DNA of 59,154 nt from a bacterium. GTDB lineage: Bacteria > Patescibacteriota > Patescibacteriia > 2-01-FULL-39-33. The position numbers and the translations under genes were made by a program. Under the pieces are notes generated by a model, which was not told the DNA's origin, made no database searches, and saw only the letters and a program-made list of their open reading frames with translations. Shown here in pieces: positions 968 to 59,154 of the stretch (position 1 is the first letter of the stretch; the number at the start of each line of letters is the position of its first letter). The stretch lies in NCBI GenBank assembly GCA_037130015.1, contig JBAXTU010000004.1, forward strand, positions 1-59,154. Reading direction: 5' to 3'.

Positions 968-3855
968 AGTTTAGTTTGTGATAGGGTTTCAATTATTTTA
1001 TCAGTTATTTTCTTTTGCTCGGACAAAGAAATTCCCAGGGCCTCCAGCCGATCATAGAGATCATTGCGCATATCCCTGGTCAACTTCTCACTAATTGCAA
1101 ACTCCGGATATTGATCGATAATGTTTTCTAAATCATGGACAGCAGGCATGTCCATTACTTTTTCCTGCTCTAAGACATCGCGAATAAACCAGGCGACACT
1201 AGAAATTCCTTGCTTCTTCTGCTCCTTCTGCCGATTAACCTCTTGCTCTGACAATTCCAAAAGCTGCCTTAATGCTTCTTGCGTAGTAGTCTGTCTGTCG
1301 GCGTAAGAATCCATAATACTCTCTGCTCGCTCTTTGACTGAAATTAGAACCGGATCATTAGACTTCTCCTCGGCCAGTCTCTGAATACTCTTAATCAAGT
1401 TAATGATCTTAACTTCATCTGGCTGATTCTTGGCTTTAATCGCCTCAATACCTTTGGCGTCAATCTTATATAATTCTCCGCTCAGCTTAATTGGCGTACT
1501 CTGGATTTGCTCCTGCACCAACTCGGCTGTCTTCTTTTGAAACTCTCGGTCAATAGACACTTGCTTACTAAAAGCATTTCTAACCACTTGATACATGGCT
1601 GATAAAGTGGAGTAGTCGTCAACGTAAGGTCTTAGGAATGGGTCAGGTGAAATAATCTCATAAAGCATCTCTATCTCATTGTACAGCTTGAAGAAGGCTT
1701 TCCGTTTCTCTTCATCTCGAAAGTGATCAATTAATGATCCGGCTAAGCGATCATCAAAGGGACCAACTAGCAATTTGAAATATGGTTTAGCCTCCACCGT
1801 CAACTTATCTTCAAAACGGTTCTTAAGCAAAGCCAAATCCTTCACGATAGCGTTAATCTCATCACTGTCAAAAGATAATGCCTTCTCCAACTTATCGAAA
1901 ATACCAACGAAATCCAAAATGAAACCATGGGGCTTAACCATTTTCATCTCAGCATTCTCATATGGTCGATTAACGCGGGCGATGGTCTGAAGTAAGGTAT
2001 GATCTCTAAGCGGTTTATCCAAATACATGCAGTAAAGAATCGGTGCATCATAGCCGGTTAAGAGCTTTTCAGTGACGATAAGAATCTTAGGAGTAGTGCC
2101 GAATTTAGCGAAGTCTCGTCTAATCTCCCTTTCCTTCTGCTCATCGTGAGTGAATTCTTTTAATAACTGAGAATCATTGTTATTACCAGTATAAACAACC
2201 TCCGTCCAATCTTTCGGCAGATACTTATCTAATTCTTTCTTGTATAAGGCACAAGCTTCCCGATCCACTGCCACCAGAAATGCCTTGTAGTTCATGGGGT
2301 CAATATGCTCCTTGAAATGCTCCGCCACAAACTTGGCCACTTTCTCAATGCGACCCTGACCCTTTAAGAAATTCCTAGTATTAACTGCTCGCTCTAAGAC
2401 AGCATTAAGCTCTTCAATATCAGTGACGCCATGCTCTTCGGCCAGATTTAAAAATTCACGCTCTAAAGTTTCTTTCGGTACCAACATTTCATTAGGCGCC
2501 AAAGAATAATACAAAGGTAAAGTGGTACCATCCTCAATGCTCTCGCCGATGCTATACTTGTGTAAATAACCCTTCTTGTCATGAACGCCAAAGGTTTTAA
2601 ATGTTCCTTTGCCATGCTGAATCTTATCAACTGGCGTGCCTGTATAGCCTATGAAAGTAGCATTAGGCATGGCAGCCATAACAAAAATACCCAAGTCGCC
2701 GCCAGTGGTTCTGTGTGCCTCATCAATCAGGACATAAATATTCTTGCGTTTATTGAGATCAGCCGGCAATCCTCTAAATTTATGGATCATGGTGACGACA
2801 ATACCGCGATAATCAGTTTTTAGTATTTTAACCAAGTCATCAATGGTCTCGGCTTTACGAACATTCTCTAAGCCAGCTGCGCGCAAGTTAGTTTCCATTT
2901 GTCCCTCTAGCTCATTGCGGTCAAGCATAATAACCACAGTCGGCTTGTCAGCTTCATTTGATTTAAATAGCAGTTCGGCTGTCTTAATCATAGTATAAGT
3001 CTTGCCACTTCCTTGAGTATGCCACACCAACCCCTTAGTAGCATTCTCATCCAGCGCCCGCTCCAATACTGCTTCAACAGCAACGGCTTGATGCTCACGC
3101 AAAACTAATTTAGATAACTGTTCGTCCTTCTCGATGAACATGATATATTTTTCAATCAGATTCAAAACATGACCAACATCAAAGAAGGTCTTAATCTTAT
3201 TCTCCAAATCACCAACTTTATCACCCTTCCAAGCAAAGATATTGCGCTTGATTGTATTCCAAGTAACGCCATACTCCAATCTCATGCCTTCAGTAACCGT
3301 AAAAGCCTGCTCGACTGCCAATAGTCCCGGCGACTCTTGATGATATCTTCTGATCTGATCCAGCGCCTTATCAATTCCTTCCTTAGTGGTAAGATTCTTA
3401 CACTCAACACTAATAACTGGAATGCCGTTAATTAAAAATACAATGTCCTGGCGGTTAGTGCCTCGTCCGCTGAAATAACTGTATTCATCCGTGACTTCAA
3501 AAACATTATTTTCCGGCTGAGTAAAATCGACCACCTTAACATTACGCTCCCGTTTCTCTTTAGGATCATAGGCAGTGCTCTGACCTCGCAAGAATAACAA
3601 AACATCACGATTTCCTTCGATGCGTGGGGAGAAATTAGGGAGCTTGTAGTCAGCAGGAAGCCAAGGATTGAATTCTAACAATTTAGACATCAAAAGACTG
3701 CGATAGTAAATCTCGCTTTTGTATGATTCTTCATTGCCACGCCTAAGATCGCTGTCTTGTCTGGGAATATATTGCCAAACAGGTTTCTTGCCAGACTTCT
3801 TAGTGGCATAGACTATAATCCTCTGTTGGACTGATTTTGCTTCAGTTGGTTTCAT
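964..3855 (-). CDS. hsdR: Type I restriction enzyme R subunit
   Basis: Nuclease motif QDIVFLINGIPVISVECK, Walker A HTQGSGKT, DEAH box, TGTP, LLTGYDAP, QTIARVNR. Confidence 0.95.
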   Translation of the reverse strand: MKPTEAKSVQQRIIVYATKKSGKKPVWQYIPRQDSDLRRGNEESYKSEIYYRSLLMSKLLEFNPWLPADYKLPNFSPRIEGNRDVLLFLRGQSTAYDPKEKRERNVKVVDFTQPENNVFEVTDEYSYFSGRGTNRQDIVFLINGIPVISVECKNLTTKEGIDKALDQIRRYHQESPGLLAVEQAFTVTEGMRLEYGVTWNTIKRNIFAWKGDKVGDLENKIKTFFDVGHVLNLIEKYIMFIEKDEQLSKLVLREHQAVAVEAVLERALDENATKGLVWHTQGSGKTYTMIKTAELLFKSNEADKPTVVIMLDRNELEGQMETNLRAAGLENVRKAETIDDLVKILKTDYRGIVVTMIHKFRGLPADLNKRKNIYVLIDEAHRTTGGDLGIFVMAAMPNATFIGYTGTPVDKIQHGKGTFKTFGVHDKKGYLHKYSIGESIEDGTTLPLYYSLAPNEMLVPKETLEREFLNLAEEHGVTDIEELNAVLERAVNTRNFLKGQGRIEKVAKFVAEHFKEHIDPMNYKAFLVAVDREACALYKKELDKYLPKDWTEVVYTGNNNDSQLLKEFTHDEQKEREIRRDFAKFGTTPKILIVTEKLLTGYDAPILYCMYLDKPLRDHTLLQTIARVNRPYENAEMKMVKPHGFILDFVGIFDKLEKALSFDSDEINAIVKDLALLKNRFEDKLTVEAKPYFKLLVGPFDDRLAGSLIDHFRDEEKRKAFFKLYNEIEMLYEIISPDPFLRPYVDDYSTLSAMYQVVRNAFSKQVSIDREFQKKTAELVQEQIQSTPIKLSGELYKIDAKGIEAIKAKNQPDEVKIINLIKSIQRLAEEKSNDPVLISVKERAESIMDSYADRQTTTQEALRQLLELSEQEVNRQKEQKKQGISSVAWFIRDVLEQEKVMDMPAVHDLENIIDQYPEFAISEKLTRDMRNDLYDRLEALGISLSEQKKITDKIIETLSQTKL

Positions 3856-3864
3856 AATTTTATT

Positions 3865-6741
3865 TTAATTCTCAGGAAAATTATATTTCTGCTCACGCTT
3901 CTGAAACGCCTCTTTGCCACCTTCAAGAATCTCACATACATGCTGCCGTATGCCCTTACGATTAAGAATTGCTGGTTCTTGTACTGGGTCCAAATCGAAA
4001 CTATTTTCAAGAGATCCAGAAGCATATTCAAATCTGAACTTCTTATTATCTCGACCAATTTCTTGGCCAGACTGATTAGCAACGATTGTCTCTTCTGCGT
4101 CAGCACCAACTACCAAATTCGGATTATGAGTTACGATAATAATTTGTCTTTGTAATTTTTTATCCTTCAAATACTTAACCAAGTCATCATATACCGAACG
4201 ATTATCTAGATCATCTTCAGGTTGATCAAGTAAAATTGGCCACTCTCCATTACTTAAGTTGATGAGTAATTGGAGCAGAACCAAACCTTTCTTGCCGGGC
4301 GACATCTTATCCAGCGGATCATTCTTATAGAAGATTCTAAAATCCAAATGAAAATAATTTTCCATCAACTTAATAATGGCATCTTTAACTGGTCTATTTT
4401 TTATGGTATTAATTGAACCATCAAGTAGACCGTTAAATACAGTGACCATATTCGCTACATGTTTTGTCTGATCATATTTATAGACAAATTCTTCTCCCCA
4501 TTCAGCTTCAACAATAATGCGCTTAAGATCATTTTTATTTATAAACTCCTTAACTACTCCTGAATTGAAAACGGTTTCATTAAAACCAACATGAACTCCC
4601 AAATTAATATCTGCGAATTTACTCTCAAACTTCTTGAACTCATTTCTTAGGCCATCGTATTTGGTTATTATTCCTCTATATAAATCGATGATATTGTCAG
4701 CTCTTTTTTGATAGGAAACCTTCTTCGTCTTCAGATTATTCTTTTTGATAATAATCTCATTGAGCTTCTGTTGTTCGACTTTAATTGCATCGGCCTTCCC
4801 CTTAAGTTCTGATTCTAACTTAACTTTAGTGAGTAAAGGTGCTAATTCTGATTTAATTTTTATCAATTCAGTATTATGAGTTTTGATTTTATCATCGACT
4901 AGAGCGCTTAAATTATTTGTTGCAGTTTTTAGGCCCGGAGAAAATGAATCTACGATCTTCAATTCTGTCTGAAATTTTGCCTTAACATCGGAGTTGTTAA
5001 TATACTCCTGATATTCATCAACCGTACCACGGAGATCGGCAACAATTGAGGTAATACTACCTCCAAAAGTTTTTATAGTCCTCTTATCTTCTTCTAGATT
5101 AGAAATCTGAATTACTATTTCCTTTTCTCTGGCTGTCAGATCCTCATATTGTCTAAGCTCCTCAGTCGTTAGTCCTGATTTTGCTTTTATGGCGTCAACC
5201 TGCCCTTGAAGCGTCTGTACATAGCTCTCAATGCCCTTCTCATCGCCGGTTCGTTTCAAATCTTCTTCAGTCTTTTTGATATCCTCACGGTCAGAAAATA
5301 ATTCACCAATCTCCGTCGAAATTGACTTAGCGTCGGTCTTTACCTCTGCGATAATATCGACATACTTGTTTCTAACTTCGTCATCTTGAATAATTACATC
5401 AAAAACGAATTCATTAAGAGTTTTACGGCTATTAACATTCGACTCTGACAACACATTTAAATATTTCTGTGGTATATAGAGAATTTTTCTCTCCCTTGAT
5501 TCATCTTCCGGAGCTCCCTCTGGCATTTTCAATAGATTACTTTGGCCATCTTTCCATGTTACCTCAAAATTAAAATCGGCTGACAAGTCAAAATCATATT
5601 TTAATGACATGCTATCACCAAGACGATTTTCAACTTCTTGCTGATCAATGGTTTTGGCTATGTAATAGAGCAAGAGAGATTTGCCAGTTGATTTACCACC
5701 GATGATTGTCGTCAAATTTTGGTTAACTTCTATTGCTTCACTATTAAACTTTGCATCGACTGTATTATCAAGAAAACGAACCTTATCTATAATGTAGTAT
5801 GATTTCTTATCGCCAGGTTTCTGCGGACCGACAAAGATGCGTTGCTCCGACTCATATACTAGTTGCTTCAGACCCTCAAAAGTCGGATCGGCTTTAATCC
5901 ACAAATAGTTGCCGTCACTATCGCATCGACCATAATTATGCAACGACCTGCCGTCTGAGCTAATATGGGTACAAAACTTTGAGGTGAGCGCCAAATTTGT
6001 TTTTATATATTCAGATACGGCCACGGATGCACTATGATTTTGTGATTGTAATATATTAACTTTCTGATAATTAAAGATATCCGCTAAATGAGTTCGATCC
6101 GTAGCTGTCCGTTCCTGAAATAAGCCATTACTACTATTGCAATGCGGGTAGATGATTATTCCTCCATTTTTCTTAACCTCATTAATAATCTCCTTGATAT
6201 CCGTGCTGGTTGTAGTCAATACGCCACTTCCATTAGTGCGATTGTTAATATTGAACTTCATCAAGAATGCTTGGATGCCTTCGGAAAATGTTTCCTTCTG
6301 ATAAAGTTTTTCTGAAAAAAATAGTAACATGTGTATACCAGTACAGTTTATCTCAACACCTGGAATAATTTTGCACTGCGACTTTTCAGCATATTCAATA
6401 AAGGTGTCAAGTAAATATTCATCAAAATAATTATGATCCGTGATGCCGACACATTTCAAATCCGGATTGAAGGTGTCCAAAAAAGCAAAATAATTTCTAA
6501 CATAATTAAGACATCTCTCCTTTTTAGCTATAGTTGCATCATTAAAATATGCTTTTGAGTCAAACCTTAAAGCATTCTCTTCGCCTCCGACTTTCGCTAT
6601 ATATTGTTGCCAGCCACTGAGATTTGATGATTTTATTTCTTCAAAATAATCACCGAGTGTAATATAATCATCATCTAGAATGGTCTGCGTTTGCAAATCC
6701 CATATACGCCACTCAGATCCTTTCGGGTATATATTATTCAT
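3865..6741 (-). CDS. PHP domain + coiled-coil ABC/SMC-type ATPase (TrlF/Ppl-like), putative defence protein
   Basis: N-terminal GSEWRIWDL, ITDHN, GVEI, WIKADPTFEGL; Walker A GGKSTGKS; long coiled coil; MSPG signature, LLDQPEDDLD, VTHN. Confidence 0.85.
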   Translation of the reverse strand: MNNIYPKGSEWRIWDLQTQTILDDDYITLGDYFEEIKSSNLSGWQQYIAKVGGEENALRFDSKAYFNDATIAKKERCLNYVRNYFAFLDTFNPDLKCVGITDHNYFDEYLLDTFIEYAEKSQCKIIPGVEINCTGIHMLLFFSEKLYQKETFSEGIQAFLMKFNINNRTNGSGVLTTTSTDIKEIINEVKKNGGIIIYPHCNSSNGLFQERTATDRTHLADIFNYQKVNILQSQNHSASVAVSEYIKTNLALTSKFCTHISSDGRSLHNYGRCDSDGNYLWIKADPTFEGLKQLVYESEQRIFVGPQKPGDKKSYYIIDKVRFLDNTVDAKFNSEAIEVNQNLTTIIGGKSTGKSLLLYYIAKTIDQQEVENRLGDSMSLKYDFDLSADFNFEVTWKDGQSNLLKMPEGAPEDESRERKILYIPQKYLNVLSESNVNSRKTLNEFVFDVIIQDDEVRNKYVDIIAEVKTDAKSISTEIGELFSDREDIKKTEEDLKRTGDEKGIESYVQTLQGQVDAIKAKSGLTTEELRQYEDLTAREKEIVIQISNLEEDKRTIKTFGGSITSIVADLRGTVDEYQEYINNSDVKAKFQTELKIVDSFSPGLKTATNNLSALVDDKIKTHNTELIKIKSELAPLLTKVKLESELKGKADAIKVEQQKLNEIIIKKNNLKTKKVSYQKRADNIIDLYRGIITKYDGLRNEFKKFESKFADINLGVHVGFNETVFNSGVVKEFINKNDLKRIIVEAEWGEEFVYKYDQTKHVANMVTVFNGLLDGSINTIKNRPVKDAIIKLMENYFHLDFRIFYKNDPLDKMSPGKKGLVLLQLLINLSNGEWPILLDQPEDDLDNRSVYDDLVKYLKDKKLQRQIIIVTHNPNLVVGADAEETIVANQSGQEIGRDNKKFRFEYASGSLENSFDLDPVQEPAILNRKGIRQHVCEILEGGKEAFQKREQKYNFPEN

Positions 6742-10931: not shown

Positions 10932-11123
10932 AAAAAAACCAGCATTCAGCCGGTTAGTGAGAATTTACTGATACACAAAACCCCACGCCAGCTGGGCTTG
11001 CGCCCCATATCCGTTTCCAGATATGACCTATTGAAAAGTCGCTGATCGTGGGGATCAGTGTTTTCAATAGGTTTTTCAACCATGCCGTCGAATATATCAA
11101 ACGGTTTAGGTCATATAAATTGT
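10932..11123 (-). ncRNA. Candidate structured ncRNA / attenuator leader (about 190 nt)
   Basis: Bounded by a promoter (11130-11158) and an intrinsic terminator (10932-10955); contains a 12+6 bp hairpin, GAAA and GCAA tetraloop hairpins and loop-distal complementarity. Confidence 0.55.
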
Positions 11124-53303: not shown

Positions 53304-54248
53304 CTAAATTTCCATCACCAACATATCAAACATCAGCTCCGGATTCTTAACGCCAGATTTGAGTCCGCTTTCAATTTCAATTATTTTTTGATTAATAGCG
53401 ACCAATTCATCAATAGAAAATTTCTTAGCTTGCTCAGTGGCCTTACTAATCACAAACGGATGCTCACGCAATCCACTATCTTCTGAGCCAACGGAATTTT
53501 TAACTCCGCTTTTTATTTTTAAAATAATTTTAAACTGCCGAGCCACCATGGCCAAGATAGCTAGTGGCGCTTCACCACTTTTTAGTTTGTCGGAAATGAG
53601 TTTTAAAGCCAGCAATTTATTTTTGGCGACAATCGCATCCACCATTTTAAAAACATCATCTTCAAATTTAGCTTTTACCAATTCCTTCACATCAACAACT
53701 TTTATTTCCTCGCCTTTTTTATACGAAATTAATTTATCAGCTTCTTGTTGCAATTGACTCAAATCACTGCCAACCAAAACCGTCATTTCTTTAATAGCTG
53801 GCGCGCCAATAATAGCGTTTTTATTTTTAAAATAATCACTCAGCCATTTTTCCGCTTGCCATGCGCTAGGCAAATCAATGGAAAATTTATATTTTTGTTT
53901 TGACAGTAATCTATACAGCGCATTTTTTGGTTCTTCTTTTTTAGTTTCAAAAATTTCAATAAAAATTAAACTGTTTTCCAATTGGTCACCTCGCTCTTCT
54001 AAAAACTGGGCCAAGTCTTTGATAATAAATTTATTGCGAGAAGAATTTTCCACCACTATTAATTTGCTCTCACCTAAAAAAGGCACGGTCAGTGCTTCTT
54101 GCCTAAACTGATCAAAATCAATAACTTTGCCGTCAAGTTTGACCACATTAAAACCGGATTTATCACGTTTTTTGATAAATTGATCAGTAAGTTCTTGAGC
54201 TTTGGCTTTGGCGCTAAAAGCGTCTGTGCCGTAAATAAAGAAAATCAT
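53304..54248 (-). CDS. holA: DNA polymerase III delta subunit
   Basis: MIFFIYGTD, PFLGESKLIVV, EADKLISY, VFKMVDAI, HPFV, LKSG; start reassigned to 54248. Confidence 0.9.
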   Translation of the reverse strand: MIFFIYGTDAFSAKAKAQELTDQFIKKRDKSGFNVVKLDGKVIDFDQFRQEALTVPFLGESKLIVVENSSRNKFIIKDLAQFLEERGDQLENSLIFIEIFETKKEEPKNALYRLLSKQKYKFSIDLPSAWQAEKWLSDYFKNKNAIIGAPAIKEMTVLVGSDLSQLQQEADKLISYKKGEEIKVVDVKELVKAKFEDDVFKMVDAIVAKNKLLALKLISDKLKSGEAPLAILAMVARQFKIILKIKSGVKNSVGSEDSGLREHPFVISKATEQAKKFSIDELVAINQKIIEIESGLKSGVKNPELMFDMLVMEI

Positions 54249-54425
54249 ATAGGGATATTTTAACCTATTTAAGGCCAAACTTCAATTTCAACAAAACCAA
54301 CCCTAAAATACAGCTACCTGTAGATAACTCATATTATTGTAGATAAAATGTTTATAGATTTATATACTTTATTTGTTTAAATTTAAATAAAATATTGTAA
54401 TATTATAAATATTGTAGAAAAATAC

Positions 54426-54454
54426 TTGACATATACTTTAGAAAGGATTATGAT
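54426..54454 (+). promoter_or_regulatory. Promoter of the TrmB-family gene
   Basis: TTGACA-N17-TATGAT. Confidence 0.7.
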
Positions 54455-54490
54455 AATTATAGAGAGAGGGAAAACAATAAAAAACAAAAT

Positions 54491-55246
54491 ATGGAAATAC
54501 AAACGCTACTGAAAGAATTCGGACTGAGCGAAAAAGAAATCGCTGTCTACCTGGCACTTATCCGTCTTGGCCCATCCCCTGTACGCTTGGTGGCTGACAA
54601 ATCCAGTATCAACCGTGGCACGGCTTATGATATTTTAAAATCACTCATGGACTTGGGGCTGGTCACTTATTACCACAAAGAAACCAAACAATACTTCGTG
54701 GCCGAACCGCCAGAAAAACTGATCATCGCCCTGGAAGAAAAACAAGATAATTTAAAAAGACTTAAAGATCAAATGCAAGAGGGGTTGCCAGAAATCCGAG
54801 CTATCTTTGAAAAAAGCGGTAATCGTCCAGCAGTCAGATTCTATGAAGGCAATAATGGCATGAAGCAAATCCTGCAAGATGTGATTGATACCATGAAACA
54901 GCAAACTGAAAAAATTTATTTTGTTTATTCCTCAGGCAAAGTGGAAGAACGCAAACATCTGTATACTGCCATGCCTGATTTTAACAAAAAAAGAATGGCC
55001 AAAGGAATTCAAGTCAGAGTAATTTCTCTCGGCGAGAAAGGCGAAGTCACCGGACTCGACGAAAGAAAGCCGCTTAAAAATGTCGTGGATGACAAAATGA
55101 AAATGACACACGAAATCATTTACGGCGACAAAGTGGCGCACATCGGACTTGATGACAGTGGCAATTCTGTCGGTGTGGTCATAGATAATCAATCTATTTA
55201 TACCATGCAAAAAATGATTTTTGGCTTCAATTGGAGTCAATTATAA
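54491..55246 (+). CDS. TrmB-family transcriptional regulator
   Basis: LKEFGLSEKEIAVYLALI...INRGTAYDILKSLMDLGLV wHTH, VRFYEG, IIYGDKVA C-terminal domain. Confidence 0.92.
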   Translation: MEIQTLLKEFGLSEKEIAVYLALIRLGPSPVRLVADKSSINRGTAYDILKSLMDLGLVTYYHKETKQYFVAEPPEKLIIALEEKQDNLKRLKDQMQEGLPEIRAIFEKSGNRPAVRFYEGNNGMKQILQDVIDTMKQQTEKIYFVYSSGKVEERKHLYTAMPDFNKKRMAKGIQVRVISLGEKGEVTGLDERKPLKNVVDDKMKMTHEIIYGDKVAHIGLDDSGNSVGVVIDNQSIYTMQKMIFGFNWSQL

Positions 55247-55328
55247 GATTTGTTCTTTTAGGGGGATGGTGATACTTTATTTTTTCTAACATTTTTTCTA
55301 CTTCTCAACACCCTTCACCTCCCCCACA

Positions 55329-55405
55329 AATCTGTCTTCCGATCAGTGTCGGAACTGATGAGTCCCTTGCCGGAAGTGGAGAGCCGGAAAAGGACGAAAC
55401 AGATT
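55329..55405 (+). ncRNA. Type III hammerhead ribozyme
   Basis: Stem III AATCTGT/ACAGATT, GUC cleavage triplet (cut after 55336), stem I TTCCGA/TCGGAA, core CTGATGA (55355-55361), stem II GTCC/GGAC extended by CCGG/CCGG, core GAAA (55396-55399). Confidence 0.95.
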
Positions 55406-55431
55406 GGACTTTAACAACAAGGAGAAATACA

Positions 55432-55713
55432 ATGTCTAAATTGTCGCCGAAGGATGGTAGTAACGATTTGGTTTTAACTTTGACTAATGGCGCATCCGTA
55501 AAAGTGTGTCATGAGTTTGAAGGCAGTGAAGCCGAAGGCCGAATGACCTGTTCTGATAATTGTCCATTCATGGGCACTCAGGAGTGGTCGGCCGGTGCTA
55601 TGGAGCGAGTGGTAGGGGTTTGGTTTTGCGCTTTGGCCCATAATGTTTTGCCCTGGAGTGAATGTATCAGCACTAACATGATTAATCAAATTGACAAAAT
55701 AATACCGGAGTGA
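55432..55713 (+). CDS. Hypothetical Cys-containing protein
   Basis: 93 aa, AAGGAG RBS, CSDNCPF...FCAL...C motif. Confidence 0.75.
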   Translation: MSKLSPKDGSNDLVLTLTNGASVKVCHEFEGSEAEGRMTCSDNCPFMGTQEWSAGAMERVVGVWFCALAHNVLPWSECISTNMINQIDKIIPE

Positions 55714-55818
55714 CACAATAATCTATTCCAAAATGAACGGAATAAAAGCGCGATTCCCCGTTGGAAGCGCGAGTGATTGTTTAACTAGAAGTACTTTTAA
55801 CAAAAAGGAGTTAGCCAG

Positions 55819-56043
55819 ATGACCATAAACGATAATCACGAGAGAATTATACTATTCTCTAGCCATGGTGACGGCGGACGATTTGATGAATTAGAAAAAC
55901 AAATCAACGCGTGGCTTAGCGATAATCCAGAGATCAGAATTATATTTCGGCAAATGACTACCTGCGCGGGACAGAAGCTGGATAACCATCACATTATATG
56001 GCCAGTCATTATTTGTACAGTCGCAATTTTTTACACTAACTAG
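55819..56043 (+). CDS. Small hypothetical protein, Cse60/DUF2758-like pattern
   Basis: IILF...DELEKQINAWL...VAIFY; AAGGAG RBS. Confidence 0.65.
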   Translation: MTINDNHERIILFSSHGDGGRFDELEKQINAWLSDNPEIRIIFRQMTTCAGQKLDNHHIIWPVIICTVAIFYTN

Positions 56044-56068
56044 CAGTACAACTCGCAATTTACAGTTT

Positions 56069-56095
56069 GTCCGTTTTCTTAAAACGGACTTTTTT
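56069..56095 (+). terminator. Intrinsic terminator closing the trmB-ribozyme-small ORF unit
   Basis: GTCCGTTTT-ctt-AAAACGGAC-TTTTTT. Confidence 0.75.
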
Positions 56096-56153
56096 ATTTG
56101 ATTAAAAAAGCCTCAGTAGTTTATGAGACTTTTTTGACCAAATAAAAAATAAC

Positions 56154-57173
56154 TTATTTTTGCCTAGCTAGTTCAATTTGTTTTTCTAAAAATTCTGCAA
56201 AACTCATACCTGCGACTTTCGCCGACTTGGGTGCTAGACTAGCCGCCGTTTGTCCGGGAATAGTATTGATTTCAATAAAGTATAGCTCATTATCTTTTAA
56301 AATAAAATCTGAACGAGTAAGTCCATCGCAACCCAAAATAGCATGGATCTTTTTTGATAAATCTTGAATTTTTGCTGTCAGTTCCGGTCCAATATTGGCC
56401 GGGCAAATTTCTTCAGTCTTTTTGGAAAAATACTTGGCCTGATAATCAAAAAACTTGGACTCATGAGGAATTATTTCAACTGGCGGTAAAGCCGTTAGTT
56501 CTGTTTGGCCGGTATTACCCATCACCGGGCAAGTCAGCTCACGGCCAACAATCATTTCTTCCACCAAAACAATTTTGTCTTCTTTAAAAGCCAAATCAAC
56601 GGCTTTTTTTAATTCAGAAAAGTCTTTAACTAGACTAACACCAATACTTGAGCCCGATTCATTGGGCTTAACCACGACCGGATAGCCAAATGATTTACTT
56701 ATCAAACCATCAAACTCATCAAGGCTCTCAGGATTTTTATATAACACTACATGTTGCGGGATAACAATCCCGTGGCTATACAAAATTTCCAAACATTTTA
56801 TTTTATTCATGCCCAAAGCGCTGGCCAAAACTCCAGAGCCGGTATAGGGCACGCCTTGATAATCTAGTATGGCCTGAATTCGCCCATCCTCGCCAAATTT
56901 TCCATGCAAAGATAAAAAAACCACGTCAATGCTTGGCAAGTCTAATTTATCGGGAGTGGTTTGACTGGATAATAATTCATGGCCAGTTGATTGTTCGCCA
57001 ATCGCTTTTAAATCAGGTCTTAGCAACCATTTTTTATCCGGTGTAATTTCAATTATTTTGACTTCATATTTATCAGTCGGCAAAGCCTGCGCAATTTGAC
57101 CAGCGCTTAAGAGTGAGATTTCTCGTTCGTTGGAAAATCCCCCGGCAATAATGGCGATGTTTATTTTTGGCAT
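56154..57173 (-). CDS. ddl: D-alanine--D-alanine ligase
   Basis: GGFSNEREISL, LHGKFGEDG, KPNESGSSIGV, FDYQAKY, EINTIPG. Confidence 0.96.
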   Translation of the reverse strand: MPKINIAIIAGGFSNEREISLLSAGQIAQALPTDKYEVKIIEITPDKKWLLRPDLKAIGEQSTGHELLSSQTTPDKLDLPSIDVVFLSLHGKFGEDGRIQAILDYQGVPYTGSGVLASALGMNKIKCLEILYSHGIVIPQHVVLYKNPESLDEFDGLISKSFGYPVVVKPNESGSSIGVSLVKDFSELKKAVDLAFKEDKIVLVEEMIVGRELTCPVMGNTGQTELTALPPVEIIPHESKFFDYQAKYFSKKTEEICPANIGPELTAKIQDLSKKIHAILGCDGLTRSDFILKDNELYFIEINTIPGQTAASLAPKSAKVAGMSFAEFLEKQIELARQK

Positions 57174-57182
57174 AATAAAAAC

Positions 57183-59154
57183 TTACAATTTAATTTTCTC
57201 AGTCTCGCCCCAATTATCACCCACACTCACTTCTACTTCTATTGGAGCGCGCAACTTCATGACCGAGCACATTGTGTCGTTAATAAACTTAGCGACTTTT
57301 TTAATTTCAGTTTCTGGCAACTCAAAAACCAATTCGTCGTGAACTTGTAAAATCATACGTGACTCAGGCGAGACCTTTGGCAAGCCATTGTTAATTTCAA
57401 TCATGGCGAGTTTGATCATATCAGCAGCACTGCCTTGAATCGGATGATTAACAGCCATGCGCTCGGCACTACTACGCACTTGGCCCATGCTAGAATTTAT
57501 TTCCGGCAAATACCGCCGACGGCCAAGGAGCGTTTCCACATAACCTTTATCACGAGCCATCACAATTGTTTCTTCCAACCATTTTTTGACTCCACTAAAG
57601 GCGCTGAAATATTTAAAAATAAATTCTTGGGCTTCGGCATTAGAAATGCCCGTGCGTGAAGACAATCCCCAAGCGCCCATGCCATAGAGCACGCCAAAAT
57701 TAACTTCTTTGGCGGTGCGACGAATTTCTTTGGTCACCTCGCTAGCCGGAATGCCATGAATTAAAGCAGCGGTCATGGTGTGAATATCACCACCATCATT
57801 AAAAATTTTCAGCATCTGTTGGTCATCAGCGAGTGAGGCCACAATACGAAGTTCTATTTGAGAATAATCGGCTTTCATAATTTGAAAACCTTTTTCCGCA
57901 ATAAAAGCTTTGCGGATTTGTCCGCCGGTTTCAGTGCGGATAGGAATGTTTTGCAAATTCGGTTCCGAAGATGACAAGCGTCCAGTCGCCGTCACCGTCT
58001 GATTAAATGAGGTATGCACTCGGCCATCTTTTTTATTTATCAAAAGTGGCAAAGCATCCAGATAAGTTGATTTTAATTTTGATAATTCCCGAAATTCTAT
58101 CAGCAGATCAATAATTTCGTGTTCGCCTTTCATTTTTTCCAGCTCGGCCGCGGCCGTGGATAGTCCCGTTTTGGTCTTGCCGATGCCTACGCTAGAAATT
58201 TTCATTTTTTCAAACAAAATTTCTTTGAGCTGTTTGGGACTGGCCAAATTAAATTCTTCGCCCGCCATTTTCCAAACTTTTTTTTCAATAATTTTAATCC
58301 GACCGTCAAATTCCACACTCAACTTTTTTAGAGCTTTGTCATTTATCTTGACGCCGTTAGTTTCAATATCCGCCAACACTGTGGTGAGTGGCATTTCCAA
58401 ATCATGGAACAACCCAGCCATACCACTGTCAGCTAATTCTTTTTTAAATTTGTCATAAAGACGAAAAGTAAAATCCGCATCCTCGCAAGAATACCAACTC
58501 ACTTTTTCTAACGGTATTTCTGCCAAAGAAACCTGATCTTTACCTTTACCAATAAGCGCTTCTATGGGTTGCATTTGATAACCAAATTCCACAAAAGCCA
58601 GTGTATCCAGTCCATGCTGACGCACACCAGGATTTAAAATATAAGAAGCAATCATAGTATCAAAATAAAGACCAGCCGTTCCCCTCCTTTCCAAGGAGGG
58701 GTTAGGGGTGGTTTGCCGTGCTGTCGGCAAACCCCTCCGCCCTTCGGGTACCTCCCCTTGGGAAGAGGAGGAACAAAATTGATTCAATACTTCCATGTCA
58801 TACTTCAAATTGTGTCCGATTTTTTTAATACTTTCATCAGCAAAAATAGCTTTTATTTTTTTGGCATTAACTTCAATTAAATCTATTGGCAAATAATAAG
58901 CCGTGCCAACTTTCCAACAAAAAGAAATTCCCAGCAGTTTAGAAGAAAAAGGATCCAAGCCGGTTGACTCAGTGTCAAAACAAAATTCTTTTTGTATTGA
59001 AAGTTCAGCTAAAAAAGTTTTTAAATTTTTTTTATCTATTAACTCATATTTTTGCTCACCAATCTTTTTATTTATAATTTCTTTTACTTCTTCTGTTTGA
59101 TTTTCATTTTTTTCATTTGAACAAACTGTATTTTCACTGTCATACATACGTAGA
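57183..59154 (-). CDS. polA: DNA polymerase I (5' part outside the window; 3'-5' exonuclease and polymerase domains present)
   Basis: FDTES ExoI, GHNLKYD, TATGRLSSSEPNLQNIP, ADYSQIELR, AKEVNFGVLYG, QVHDELV. Confidence 0.97.
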   Translation of the reverse strand, partial: LRMYDSENTVCSNEKNENQTEEVKEIINKKIGEQKYELIDKKNLKTFLAELSIQKEFCFDTESTGLDPFSSKLLGISFCWKVGTAYYLPIDLIEVNAKKIKAIFADESIKKIGHNLKYDMEVLNQFCSSSSQGEVPEGRRGLPTARQTTPNPSLERRGTAGLYFDTMIASYILNPGVRQHGLDTLAFVEFGYQMQPIEALIGKGKDQVSLAEIPLEKVSWYSCEDADFTFRLYDKFKKELADSGMAGLFHDLEMPLTTVLADIETNGVKINDKALKKLSVEFDGRIKIIEKKVWKMAGEEFNLASPKQLKEILFEKMKISSVGIGKTKTGLSTAAAELEKMKGEHEIIDLLIEFRELSKLKSTYLDALPLLINKKDGRVHTSFNQTVTATGRLSSSEPNLQNIPIRTETGGQIRKAFIAEKGFQIMKADYSQIELRIVASLADDQQMLKIFNDGGDIHTMTAALIHGIPASEVTKEIRRTAKEVNFGVLYGMGAWGLSSRTGISNAEAQEFIFKYFSAFSGVKKWLEETIVMARDKGYVETLLGRRRYLPEINSSMGQVRSSAERMAVNHPIQGSAADMIKLAMIEINNGLPKVSPESRMILQVHDELVFELPETEIKKVAKFINDTMCSVMKLRAPIEVEVSVGDNWGETEKIKL
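58678..58774. repeat. REPIN-like palindromic doublet inserted in frame in polA
   Basis: Long imperfect hairpin centred on GGTTTGCCG-tgctgt-CGGCAAACC; encodes about 30 extra residues SSSSQGEVPEGRRGLPTARQTTPNPSLERRGT in the exonuclease domain. Confidence 0.85.

What the first reader, a model, noticed from the sequence alone, without database searches (positions are those of the whole stretch)
55329..55405. Complete type III hammerhead ribozyme inside a chromosomal trmB - small-ORF transcription unit
Seen: every conserved core nucleotide (CUGAUGA, GAAA, GUC) and all three stems are present. Predicted cleavage is after C55336, 90 nt past the trmB stop and 95 nt before the next ATG. No separate promoter is evident between trmB and the ribozyme, and a terminator follows the second small ORF. 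Established: hammerheads self-cleave to leave a 5'-OH and a 2',3'-cyclic phosphate. Inference: self-cleavage splits the regulator mRNA from a 5'-OH, hairpin-protected mRNA for two orphan proteins, a ribozyme-processed operon in a probable CPR bacterium.
Basis: partly seen in the sequence, partly recalled or inferred. Interest (0 to 1): 0.85.

Follow-up and report, generated by a model that had tools for sequence, protein, structure and literature searches.

The report
Hammerhead ribozyme between genes, CPR bacterium
A genuine self-cutting hammerhead RNA lies between a regulator gene and two tiny genes in a very small bacterial genome; related bacteria carry the same ribozyme type between the genes of another operon, so it is a real but already known kind of element.

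Summary
Window 55329-55405 (+) is a complete type III hammerhead. The Rfam Hammerhead_3 model aligns end to end at 43.1 bits, E 1.5e-8 for the 886-kb genome. That is below the curated 48.5 bits only because of an 18-nt insertion in stem II. A model built from relatives scores it 63.4 bits. It belongs to a subfamily with stem I UUCCGA/UCGGAA and a stem II that tolerates insertions. Of 32 parsed genome records, 20 carry CPR names, and stems II and III co-vary.

In the window's own family, 9 of 33 genomes carry such hammerheads, against 2 of 117 genomes outside it. Most sit between cistrons of a conserved chromosomal operon (HIT, small Cys protein, AAA_28, CYTH) beside a TrmB paralogue.

The window's copie is a lineage-specific insertion of about 155 nt (helix plus ribozyme) into the spacer after a TrmB-family regulator gene. 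No promoter or terminator was detected in that spacer.

Co-transcription and cleavage are likely but untested, because no RNA data exist. The claim that the 5'-OH protects the downstream RNA is doubtful. RNase J, the only major decay RNase found, degrades 5'-OH RNA in Bacillus.

Bacterial hammerheads flanking small non-conserved ORFs have been in print since 2010-2011. This is a new member of a known kind.

The parts
54426..54454 (+). Sigma-70-like promoter (TTGACA, 17 nt, TATGAT) before the regulator gene
   Evidence: 11 of 12 hexamer positions match. It is only a consensus match; the whole region had 7 sites against 6.4 expected from shuffles.
54491..55246 (+). TrmB-family helix-turn-helix transcription regulator gene (251 aa)
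   Evidence: ORF. PF01978 TrmB, E 5.3e-16, 58.7 bits against a cut-off of 25.6. Orthologues at 65-68% identity occur in 6 genomes of a sister genus.
55261..55325 (+). Long-range helix, arms 55261-55272 and 55315-55325, around a 42-nt A/U-rich loop. It ends 3 nt before the ribozyme.
   Evidence: -18.5 kcal/mol, z -3.53, and 0 of 200 shuffles fold as well. It is not followed by a U run, so it is not terminator-like. Stable hairpins abut other members of the subfamily.
55329..55405 (+). Type III hammerhead ribozyme (stems III, I, II; core CUGAUGA, GAAA; GUC site)
   Evidence: RF00008: 43.1 bits, E 1.5e-8 genome-wide. (subfamily model R1: 63.4 bits, E 1.3e-17). Covariation in relatives.
55336..55337 (+). 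Predicted self-cleavage site, after C55336. The 5' product would end in a 2',3'-cyclic phosphate and the 3' product would begin with 5'-OH U55337, the first base of stem I.
   Evidence: The position follows from the hammerhead consensus alignment. The chemistry is established knowledge. Nothing was tested here.
55366..55391 (+). Insertion in loop II: an extra hairpin (CCGG, 10 nt, CCGG), with the 3' A run of the minimal loop kept
   Evidence: One search shows it as an 18-nt insertion to the Rfam model. One search gives the fold; 19 of the 36 other distinct subfamily members carry stem II inserts that make stem II plus loop longer than the 12-13 nt compact form. A63 (55391) is nearly invariant in the 34 aligned.
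55405..55417 (+). Leader box GGACTTTAACAAC, shared with the spacers after orthologous regulator genes
   Evidence: the orthologous loci carry GCACTTTGACAAC, GCACTTTACAAC or GCACCTTACAAC 10-25 nt after the stop codon and before the ribosome-binding site. In the window the box comes only after the helix and ribozyme. The motif is not enriched in the window as a whole (10 matches against 10.2 expected).
55419..55424 (+). Ribosome-binding site AAGGAG, 7 nt before the ORF1 start
   Evidence: Read from the sequence.
55432..55713 (+). ORF1, 93 aa, Cys-containing small protein of unknown function
   Evidence: No Pfam or PHROG family. One true homologue, P0003: 45 of 77 residues identical, and 4 of ORF1's 5 cysteines (C26, C40, C44, C66) are aligned with cysteines. 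The word-based search found only the protein itself.
55691..55719 (+). Promoter-like site (TTGACA, 17 nt, TG-n-CACAAT) inside the end of ORF1; a possible separate start for ORF2
   Evidence: 10 of 12 positions, with TG before the second hexamer. Consensus match only.
55819..56043 (+). ORF2, 74 aa, small protein with a hydrophobic C-terminus
   Evidence: AAGGAG lies at 55805-55810. Distant homologues occur in 9 of 400 related genomes, the best at 43% identity, E 3.1e-9. The Atlas model resembles Cse60-family models at TM 0.70-0.73, but Pfam gives no match.
56069..56098 (+). Intrinsic-terminator-like hairpin plus T run, the end of the unit
   Evidence: 9-bp stem, 3-nt loop, then TTTTTTATTT. It is the only such site found in 54200-56300.

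Best explanation
The element is a functional type III hammerhead ribozyme. It came in as an insertion of about 155 nt (helix plus ribozyme) into the spacer between a TrmB-family regulator gene and the genes that follow.

Proposed mechanism. The unit 54426-56098 is transcribed from the promoter before the regulator gene. As the ribozyme emerges it folds; stem I is complete before the core is made. It then cuts itself after C55336. This splits the transcript in two:
- A regulator mRNA that ends in the upstream helix plus 11 nt and a 2',3'-cyclic phosphate.
- An ORF1-ORF2 mRNA whose 5'-OH end is buried in the stem I hairpin, followed by the stem II hairpin, an unstructured A/C-rich leader and a strong ribosome-binding site.

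The two halves can then decay and be translated independently, which insulates the cistrons from each other.

Shown here: the motif, its family, its genomic setting, and the conserved intercistronic placement of sister ribozymes in related genomes.

Inferred: co-transcription, cleavage in the cell, and the effect on expression. My lean is that the 5'-terminal hairpin, not the 5'-OH itself, shields the downstream RNA.
For: 1. Motif. It is complete and highly significant.

2. Core pairs. The three pairs next to the core are standard. That is the acceptance criterion quoted from Perreault et al. 2011 (passage read).

3. Subfamily. A pattern for stem I plus the core found 47 genome records, of which 32 parse as full hammerheads; 20 of those 32 carry CPR names. 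In an alignment of 34 members, 97.7% of cells pair, against 79.4% in shuffles. Double changes occur in 7 of 10 stem III pairs and 3 of 4 stem II pairs.

4. Own family. Model R1 hits 9 of 33 family genomes, against 2 of 117 outside. In 16 aligned hits, all 6 stem I pairs change on both sides and 100% of cells pair.

5. Intercistronic placement in relatives. In G027 the spacings are: stop, 34 nt, ribozyme, 29 nt, ATG of AAA_28; then stop, 36 nt, second ribozyme, CYTH. Similar arrangements occur in G032, G026, G021, G020 and G004. These spacers leave no room for promoters or terminators.

6. TrmB association. In 7 of the 9 family genomes with hits, the ribozyme lies 0.6-2.4 kb from a TrmB paralogue.

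7. Window spacer. No promoter-like or terminator-like site lies between regulator and ribozyme. Orthologous regulator genes are followed after 40-100 nt by a ribosome-binding site and a gene, which suggests an operon layout.

8. Folding order. Stem I is already the best fold of the first 26 nt.

9. Missing endonucleases. No RNase E/G or RNase Y was found in a 99.4%-complete genome. A self-cutting RNA would supply a site-specific cut that these enzymes cannot.
Against: - No RNA evidence at all. Cleavage and co-transcription are untested.
- The nearest-neighbour minimum-energy fold is not the hammerhead fold. Loop I plus stem I (AUCAGU) can pair with the core (ACUGAU). That fold is -23.5 kcal/mol, against -21.8 for the ribozyme fold. 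Stem I pair probabilities are 0.26-0.39, against 0.53-0.62 for the alternative. Tertiary contacts are not in that energy model.
- The Rfam score is below the curated gathering score (43.1 against 48.5).
- The ribozyme is absent after the orthologous regulator genes: 0 hits in 6 loci. It is the only one in this genome. It is therefore dispensable for that operon type.
- The 5'-OH may sensitise the downstream RNA to RNase J rather than protect it.
- Across the subfamily the link to a downstream gene start is weak. 15 of 35 have a same-strand ORF start within 150 nt, against 12 of 30 in the antisense control. The link to an upstream gene end is stronger: 23 of 30, against 16 of 35 (crude ORF calling).
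- The promoter scan covers sigma-70-type sites only, and CPR promoters are poorly known.
Confidence: 0.6

Rival explanations
1. The ribozyme is active, but it works as a constitutive down-regulator of ORF1 and ORF2. Cleavage exposes a 5'-OH end that RNase J degrades 5' to 3', as with the glmS ribozyme in Bacillus. The regulator would then be made from every transcript and the small proteins from few.
For: RNase J is present at 477.7 bits, above its cut-off of 400. RNase E/G, RNase Y and RNB were not found. The passage read in PMC3328962 states that the 5'-OH glmS product is a substrate of the RNase J1 exonuclease and is rapidly degraded.
Against: The new 5' end has no unpaired nucleotide, because U55337 pairs with A55354 in stem I. 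That should hinder a 5' exonuclease; this point is recalled knowledge of 5' stem-loop stabilisers in Bacillus and was not checked here. In relatives, ribozymes precede nearly every cistron of a conserved operon, which is hard to reconcile with each cut destroying the next gene's mRNA. No ligand-sensing domain is evident.
Confidence: 0.15
2. The ribozyme is a passenger or relic. It came in with a horizontally acquired cassette (helix plus ribozyme, perhaps together with ORF1 and ORF2) and has little or no role for the host. It may be partly inactivated by the competing fold.
For: - It is lineage-specific, with none after 6 orthologous regulator genes, and it is the only copy in the genome.
- The region after this regulator gene is variable among relatives.
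- ORF1 and ORF2 are almost without relatives.
- Their nearest Atlas neighbours by features are small hypothetical proteins, mostly of viruses. The score of 0.85 is a lead only.
- Near-identical stem III and stem I sequences occur with other flanks in lake metagenome contigs and in differently named taxa.
- Prokaryotic hammerheads have a persistent link with phages (passages read).
- The competing fold is 1.7 kcal/mol more stable.
Against: - Every core position and both nearly invariant loop positions (55343, 55391) are intact.
- No phage or integrase genes are nearby.
- No relatives of ORF1 or ORF2 were found in viral contigs (these searches find close relatives only).
- This stem I subfamily is rare in viral contigs: 3 loci, against 47 in genome records. 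The collections differ in size.
- G+C of the ORFs (0.40-0.45) is close to that of their neighbours (0.35-0.41).
Confidence: 0.14
3. The ribozyme serves only the upstream gene. It trims read-through transcripts to give the regulator mRNA a defined 3' end just after the protective helix. ORF1 and ORF2 are expressed from their own promoters.
For: - Across the subfamily the stronger association is with the end of a same-strand upstream ORF: 23 of 30, against 16 of 35 in the control.
- Stable hairpins end 0-3 nt before many members. In 9 of 35, the upstream 45 nt fold better than 95% of windows in the same locus.
- Several members are followed by terminator-like hairpins rather than genes.
- A promoter-like site lies before ORF2.
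Against: No promoter-like site for ORF1 lies downstream of the ribozyme, except one whose second hexamer overlaps the start codon (55405-55433, 9 of 12). ORF1's ribosome-binding site lies only 14 nt after the ribozyme. In relatives the ribozymes sit 29 nt or less before start codons.
Confidence: 0.1
4. The motif is a chance match and does not fold as a ribozyme.
For: The score is below the Rfam gathering threshold. The fold energy of the 77 nt alone is not exceptional: z -1.66, and 11 of 200 shuffles fold as well.
Against: E 1.5e-8 for the whole genome. 63.4 bits and E 1.3e-17 with the subfamily model. The model is matched full-length and all core nucleotides are present.
Confidence: 0.01

Closest known systems
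Bacterial and phage hammerhead ribozymes that flank small, non-conserved ORFs (Perreault et al. 2011, PMC3088659; review by de la Pena et al. 2017, PMC6155905; passages read)
   Same: Same catalytic motif and topology (type III). Intergenic position on the coding strand. Next to small proteins of unknown function. Proposed role of cutting polycistronic RNA into gene-length mRNAs. Several ribozymes per locus in the relatives.
   Different: The setting here is a chromosomal housekeeping neighbourhood of a CPR bacterium with no integrase or prophage. It is a single copy in the genome. It lies next to TrmB-family regulators. In relatives the flanked genes are HIT, AAA_28 and CYTH or glycosyltransferases, not phage genes.
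Rfam RF00008 Hammerhead_3 (seeded largely on plant viroid and satellite RNA ribozymes and on genomic examples; the make-up of the seed is recalled, not checked)
   Same: Full-length alignment to all 54 model positions, with every conserved core nucleotide.
   Different: An 18-nt hairpin is inserted in loop II, which puts the score 5.4 bits under the gathering score. The DNA-encoded, mRNA-embedded context differs from a circular RNA replicon.
glmS ribozyme with the RNase J1 decay pathway of Bacillus subtilis (Collins et al. 2007, as summarised in PMC3328962; passage read)
   Same: A self-cleaving RNA in an mRNA leader produces a 5'-OH downstream fragment in an organism whose main decay enzyme is RNase J.
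   Different: A different ribozyme class. There is no metabolite-sensing domain. Here the 5'-OH nucleotide is base-paired in a terminal hairpin. The outcome, decay or protection, is unknown.
Synthetic ribozyme insulators such as RiboJ (a satellite-RNA hammerhead plus a hairpin placed before a ribosome-binding site; recalled, no paper read here)
   Same: The layout of hammerhead, short leader and ribosome-binding site would remove upstream RNA context from the translation start.
   Different: This one is natural, the accessory helix lies upstream rather than downstream of the ribozyme, and the effect is unmeasured.

Membership tests
Hammerhead ribozyme, type III (Rfam RF00008) | Conserved core: CUGANGA between stems I and II, GAAA between stems II and III | tested here: met
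   CUGAUGA at 55355-55361. GAA at 55396-55398 plus A55399.
Hammerhead ribozyme, type III (Rfam RF00008) | Cleavage triplet NUH at the junction of stem III and stem I | tested here: met
   GUC at 55334-55336, followed by stem I.
Hammerhead ribozyme, type III (Rfam RF00008) | Three helices with standard pairs next to the core (10.1-11.1, 1.1-2.1, 15.1-16.1); stems I and II closed by loops, stem III open | tested here: met
   G55362-C55395, U55337-A55354 and A55399-U55335. Stem I is 6 bp, stem II is 4 bp plus an extension, stem III is 7 bp. The criterion is quoted from PMC3088659.
Hammerhead ribozyme, type III (Rfam RF00008) | Score at or above the curated Rfam gathering score (48.5 bits) | tested here: not met
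   43.1 bits. The shortfall comes from the loop II insertion. E is still 1.5e-8 genome-wide, and a subfamily model gives 63.4 bits. This is a curation threshold, not a structural feature.
Hammerhead ribozyme, type III (Rfam RF00008) | Loop I to loop II tertiary contact needed for fast cleavage at low Mg2+ | tested here: inconclusive
   The two nearly invariant loop positions of the subfamily are kept: U at 55343, the first base of loop I, and A at 55391, the last base before the 3' strand of stem II. Whether they touch cannot be computed here.
Hammerhead ribozyme, type III (Rfam RF00008) | Self-cleavage giving a 2',3'-cyclic phosphate and a 5'-OH | not testable with these tools
   No RNA run holds the locus. 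It needs a bench assay.
TrmB family of transcription regulators (Pfam PF01978) | N-terminal winged helix-turn-helix TrmB domain above the curated score | tested here: met
   Residues 7-73, 58.7 bits against 25.6. DNA binding and the ligand were not tested.
Cse60 small proteins (Pfam PF10957), considered for ORF2 | Sequence match to the family profile | tested here: not met
   No Pfam hit even at E 10. The only link is a predicted-structure likeness, TM 0.70-0.73, to clusters partly carrying PF10957. ORF2 is not filed as a member.
Metabolite-controlled ribozyme (glmS-like) | A ligand-binding domain coupled to the catalytic core | not tested
   No such domain is evident in 55247-55431. The only alternative fold found is loop I pairing with the core. 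Within the 34-sequence alignment, one other member (L092) carries the same loop I sequence.

The most novel reading that the evidence does not exclude
In this CPR family, which appears to lack RNase E/G and RNase Y, type III hammerheads may be a selected, lineage-wide substitute for protein endonucleases. On this reading, modular helix-plus-ribozyme cassettes are inserted between the cistrons of chromosomal operons controlled by TrmB-type regulators and cut the polycistronic RNAs into separately stable mRNAs. The window would then hold a recent insertion of such a cassette into a second TrmB operon, caught next to its unoccupied orthologous sites.
Probability: 0.25. Interest if true: 0.65.

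Novelty: new member of a known kind. Interest (0 to 1): 0.42.

Why it matters
What hammerheads do in prokaryotes is called an open question in the 2017 review (passage read). Most known bacterial copies sit in prophages, where host function is hard to separate from phage biology.

This case differs in three ways. The ribozyme sits in plain chromosomal operons of very small genomes. It recurs at the same intercistronic positions across several genera. And the host seems to have only RNase J among the major mRNA-decay nucleases.

That gives a clean natural comparison. Occupied and empty orthologous spacers can be compared directly, and ribozyme-punctuated operons can be compared with the fused-gene version found in G000. 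Such comparisons could test whether self-cleavage sets the relative expression of cistrons.

For annotation, the case also shows that the Rfam gathering score misses hammerheads with loop II insertions. In the 150 relatives searched, Rfam at E <= 0.01 found 3 genomes, and the subfamily model at E <= 0.001 found 11.

Tried and rejected
1. RNA evidence. The look-up of sequencing runs listed 8 DNA holders (lake and freshwater metagenomes) and no RNA holder. The RNA end at 55337 could therefore not be looked for.

2. Read laying on four runs gave contigs only. It confirmed the junction (X4 record 7). It also showed short contigs with the same stem III and stem I but other stem II sequences and other flanks. 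One low-depth contig (X8 record 17, depth 3.2) keeps 55362-55425 and then diverges before another ATG. That is too thin to build on.

3. Other self-cleaving classes in the genome. Hammerhead I, hammerhead II and twister-P1 gave nothing at E <= 1. Pistol gave E 0.73 and hatchet E 0.89, both at chance level.

4. Ribozyme next to ORF2 homologues or after orthologous regulator genes: none.

5. A general leader motif ACTTTAACAA: not enriched in the window, 10 matches against 10.2 expected. I dropped the idea that it is a lineage-wide promoter or enhancer.

6. A regulatory switch from the loop I-to-core pairing. Within the 34-sequence alignment, only one other member (L092) has the same loop I sequence, so it is not a family feature.

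7. Phage origin of ORF1 and ORF2. No PHROG at E <= 0.01 and no relatives in viral contigs. The Atlas feature scores of 0.85 are leads only.

8. ORF1's matches to giant proteins (P0004-P0007) fall in HCBP_related / BapA_N repeat regions. This is a short strand-like motif and is not evidence of function.

9. The first viral-contig pattern found nothing. A broad hammerhead pattern found 34 viral loci with compact ribozymes, which only restates the known phage link.

10. The upstream-hairpin test with 45-nt windows gives the window itself an MFE of 0, because its helix arms are 42 nt apart. The helix shows only in longer windows.

11. The weak R1 hit in G005 lies between the ribosomal protein L11 and L1 genes and scores on both strands. 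I treat it as doubtful.

12. Literature. No paper in the searched library holds 'hammerhead ribozyme' with 'candidate phyla radiation'. Two papers hold 'hammerhead' with 'Patescibacteria', and judging by their titles both are unrelated. Supplementary files were not opened. The supplementary hammerhead lists of Perreault et al. 2011 may already contain members of this subfamily.

Full report
**The observation**

The stretch 55329-55405 on the + strand reads as a textbook type III hammerhead.
- Stem III is 7 bp (55329-55335 with 55399-55405).
- The cleavage triplet GUC ends at C55336.
- Stem I is 6 bp (55337-55342 with 55349-55354) and is closed by a 6-nt loop.
- The core CUGAUGA lies at 55355-55361.
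- Stem II starts with GUCC/GGAC (55362-55365 with 55392-55395).
- GAA lies at 55396-55398.

Rfam at gathering thresholds reports only a LOOT RNA and two tRNAs in the window. With E-value thresholds, Hammerhead_3 (RF00008) aligns to exactly these coordinates over all 54 model positions, at 43.1 bits against a gathering score of 48.5. The E-value is 2.1e-8 for 301 nt and 1.5e-8 for the whole 886,299-base genome. The missing bits come from an 18-nt insertion in loop II. The next best hit in the genome has E 0.69.

**The surroundings**

- Upstream gene. 54491-55246 encodes a TrmB-family helix-turn-helix regulator (PF01978, 58.7 bits). It is not the tRNA methyltransferase of the same name.
- Downstream ORFs. 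ORF1 (55432-55713, 93 aa) and ORF2 (55819-56043, 74 aa) follow, each behind an AAGGAG site.
- Neighbours. The unit is flanked by holA on one side and by ddl and polA on the other, all on the opposite strand. No phage or integrase genes are nearby.
- Signals. The consensus scan gives a strong promoter-like site before the regulator gene (54426-54454, 11 of 12). It gives none on the + strand between the regulator's stop and the end of the ribozyme. It gives one inside the end of ORF1 (55691-55719, 10 of 12), and the only terminator-like hairpin at 56069-56089.
- Upstream helix. Just before the ribozyme, arms 55261-55272 and 55315-55325 form a helix of -18.5 kcal/mol (z -3.53; 0 of 200 shuffles as good). 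It ends 3 nt before stem III and has no U run after it.
- Independent contig. A 404-nt contig from another study's lake metagenome covers 55182-55585 without a difference, so the junction is not an assembly artefact.

**The two small proteins**

ORF1 is found only as itself by the word-based search. It has no credible match in 400 related genomes (the two weak hits contain stop codons). The exhaustive search of 1.84 billion representatives gives 7 proteins at E <= 0.001:
- ORF1 itself.
- One true homologue, P0003, with 45 of 77 residues identical; 4 of ORF1's 5 cysteines (C26, C40, C44, C66) are aligned with cysteines.
- Five matches to other proteins. P0004-P0007 are giant repeat proteins, and the two of them that were scanned (P0006, P0007) carry HCBP_related and BapA_N repeat domains. 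P0008 is a 322-aa protein with Sushi repeats.

ORF2 is likewise alone in the word-based search. It has distant six-frame matches in 9 of 400 related genomes, the best at 43% identity, E 3.1e-9. Its Atlas model resembles Cse60-family models (TM 0.70-0.73), but no Pfam or convincing PHROG match exists. Both are probably real genes. 'Orphan' is nearly, not strictly, right.

**The ribozyme belongs to a large, mostly cellular subfamily**

Lake metagenome contigs already hinted at sister copies with the same stem III and stem I but other stem II sequences and other flanks.
- Genome records. A pattern for stem I plus the core found 47 records among the species representatives. Of these, 32 parse as complete hammerheads. 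By record title, 20 of the 32 are CPR lineages (Saccharibacteria, Levyibacteriota, Magasanikbacteria, Shapirobacteria, Buchananbacteria and others), 10 are MAGs labelled Gammaproteobacteria, one is Oligoflexia and one is an archaeon.
- Metagenome contigs. A related pattern found 18 loci, of which 7 parse.
- Viral contigs. The stem I pattern found only 3 loci.
- Stem II length. It ranges from a 4-bp stem with a 4-nt loop to inserts of more than 50 nt. 19 of the 36 other distinct members carry an insert, so the window's insertion is typical.
- Covariation. In an alignment of 34 members, 97.7% of cells pair, against 79.4% in shuffles. Seven of 10 stem III pairs and 3 of 4 stem II pairs show changes on both sides. 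Two caveats apply: stem I was fixed by the search pattern, and my parser required at least 3 stem III pairs and 2 stem II pairs.
- Conserved loop positions. The first base of loop I and the last base before the 3' strand of stem II are at least 90% conserved. The window keeps both (U55343, A55391).

**The same ribozyme type punctuates a conserved operon in the window's own family**

Rfam's model found hits at E <= 0.01 in only 3 of 150 relatives. A covariance model built from the 34 sequences (R1) scores the window at 63.4 bits. It hits 9 of 33 genomes of the same family, against 2 of 117 outside it.

In 16 aligned hits from these loci, all six stem I pairs change on both sides and every cell pairs. 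The alignment is fitted to the model, so it leans that way.

In G027, G032, G026, G021, G020 and G004 the ribozymes lie between cistrons of an operon encoding a HIT protein, a small Cys-rich protein, an AAA_28 ATPase and a CYTH protein. The operon is divergent from a TrmB paralogue and next to clpP. There are one to three ribozymes per locus. In G027 the spacings are: stop, 34 nt, ribozyme, 29 nt, ATG; then stop, 36 nt, second ribozyme.

In 7 of the 9 family genomes with hits, the ribozyme lies 0.6-2.4 kb from a TrmB paralogue. In three of those genomes (G027, G020, G004) it is the only TrmB match at E <= 1e-5.

The window's own genome has the equivalent genes as TrmB followed by one fused CYTH-kinase-CYTH protein of 609 aa, without a ribozyme.

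Elsewhere in the subfamily, ribozymes sit 2-10 nt before the start codons of family-2 glycosyltransferase genes. That holds for 4 of 9 downstream ORFs tested. Others sit before a solute-binding protein and a plastocyanin-like protein. These are cellular genes, not phage genes.

**The window's copy is an insertion**

Orthologues of the window's regulator (65-68% identity) occur in 6 genomes of a sister genus. holA lies upstream in 2 of the 6 loci (L072, L077), and different genes follow downstream. Their spacers are 40-100 nt long and contain a conserved box (GCACTTTGACAAC or close variants) before the ribosome-binding site. They have no ribozyme.

The window has the same box (GGACTTTAACAAC, 55405-55417), but only after the helix and ribozyme. 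About 155 nt were therefore inserted between the stop codon and the box.

The ribozyme's stem III (UCUGU) is that of copies in differently named taxa, not the CCGAU stem of the family's operon copies. This suggests acquisition rather than local duplication; that is an inference.

**How it most likely works**

The motif, its family, its conserved intercistronic use in relatives, and the lack of a detectable promoter or terminator in the spacer make co-transcription with the regulator gene, followed by self-cleavage after C55336, the best reading. My confidence is 0.6.

The upstream RNA would end in the helix plus 11 nt and a cyclic phosphate. The downstream RNA would begin with a 5'-OH base already paired in stem I, followed by stem II, an unstructured leader and the ribosome-binding site.

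Three cautions apply.
- Competing fold. The nearest-neighbour minimum-energy fold pairs loop I with the core (-23.5 against -21.8 kcal/mol). However, stem I is the best fold of the nascent first 26 nt, and tertiary contacts are not modelled.
- Fate of the 5'-OH. The genome search found RNase J (477.7 bits). It found no RNase E/G, RNase Y, RNB or RtcB in a 99.4%-complete assembly. In Bacillus subtilis the 5'-OH product of the glmS ribozyme is degraded by RNase J1 (passage read in PMC3328962). The 5'-OH itself is therefore no shield. Any protection must come from the terminal hairpin, and a glmS-like down-regulation remains a live rival.
- Upstream versus downstream. Across the subfamily the association is stronger with the end of an upstream gene (23 of 30, against 16 of 35 in the antisense control) than with a downstream start (15 of 35, against 12 of 30, crude ORF calling). 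Stable hairpins often abut the ribozyme's 5' side (9 of 35 within the best 5% of their locus). A role in shaping the upstream mRNA's 3' end is therefore possible.

**Comparison with what is known**

Hundreds of bacterial hammerheads were reported in 2010-2011. Many lie near integrases and prophages, often in groups flanking single genes or small non-conserved ORFs. Processing of polycistronic RNA was proposed, and cleavage of 2-kb constructs was shown in vitro (passages read in PMC3088659). The 2017 review calls their role an open question and stresses the phage link (passages read in PMC6155905).

The window's element is a new member of that kind. What differs is the setting: non-phage chromosomal operons of CPR bacteria, repeated association with TrmB-family regulators, and a host with a minimal RNase set.

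I found no paper in the searched library that links hammerheads with CPR or Patescibacteria. Supplementary lists of earlier surveys could not be opened and may contain such copies.

**Verdict**

Novelty: a new member of a known kind. Interest is about 0.4. The motif itself is ordinary. The family-wide, conserved, ribozyme-punctuated operons and the occupied-versus-empty orthologous sites make a usable natural test case for the unresolved function of prokaryotic hammerheads.

Noticed in passing
Relatives: L157 (G027) 3009-5041; also L158, L159, L161, L162, L163: A conserved operon (HIT, small Cys-rich protein, AAA_28 ATPase, CYTH) is divergent from a TrmB paralogue. It carries one to three type III hammerheads in its spacers of about 115 nt. 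In G000 the same functions are fused into one 609-aa CYTH-PRK-CYTH protein without a ribozyme (L168).
   Followed up: partly
L103, L106, L122, L127 (genome contigs records): Hammerheads of the same subfamily end 2-10 nt before the start codons of family-2 glycosyltransferase genes (PF00535, 96-127 bits) in four different MAGs.
   Followed up: partly
G000, whole genome: RNase J is present (477.7 bits). RNase E/G, RNase Y, RNB (RNase II/R) and RtcB were not found with single family models in a 99.4%-complete assembly of 42 contigs. PNPase and RNase III were not looked for.
   Followed up: partly
window 10994-11112 (-): A LOOT RNA (RF03000) well above threshold: 86.2 bits against 46.4. This is a structured RNA of unknown function.
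   Followed up: no
window 58671-58772 (- strand gene polA): An in-frame 102-nt insertion with 64% G+C, in a gene of 40% G+C. It encodes a 34-aa low-complexity stretch inside the exonuclease part of DNA polymerase I. The DNA has palindromic GGGGAGG / CCTCCCC-like arms.
   Followed up: no
Family f1 genomes: There are many TrmB-family paralogues in roughly 1-Mb genomes. 24 of 34 genomes have at least one match at E <= 1e-5, and one genome (G013) has up to 10.
   Followed up: no
window 55342-55347 with 55354-55359: Loop I and the end of stem I (AUCAGU) can pair with the ribozyme core (ACUGAU). That fold is 1.7 kcal/mol more stable than the active one. Within the 34-sequence alignment, one other member (L092) has the same loop I sequence.
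   Followed up: partly
window 55405-55417 and 55792-55804; L072-L077 spacers: Similar A/C-rich leader boxes (ACTTTAACAA-like) precede the ribosome-binding sites of ORF1 and ORF2 and of the genes after the orthologous regulators. The motif is not enriched window-wide.
   Followed up: partly
L131 (two copies), L063/L066/L100, L093/L105: Identical or near-identical hammerhead sequences occur in records with different taxon labels (Saccharibacteria, an 'uncultured archaeon', metagenome contigs), and twice within one contig. This hints at mobility or at very strong constraint.
   Followed up: no
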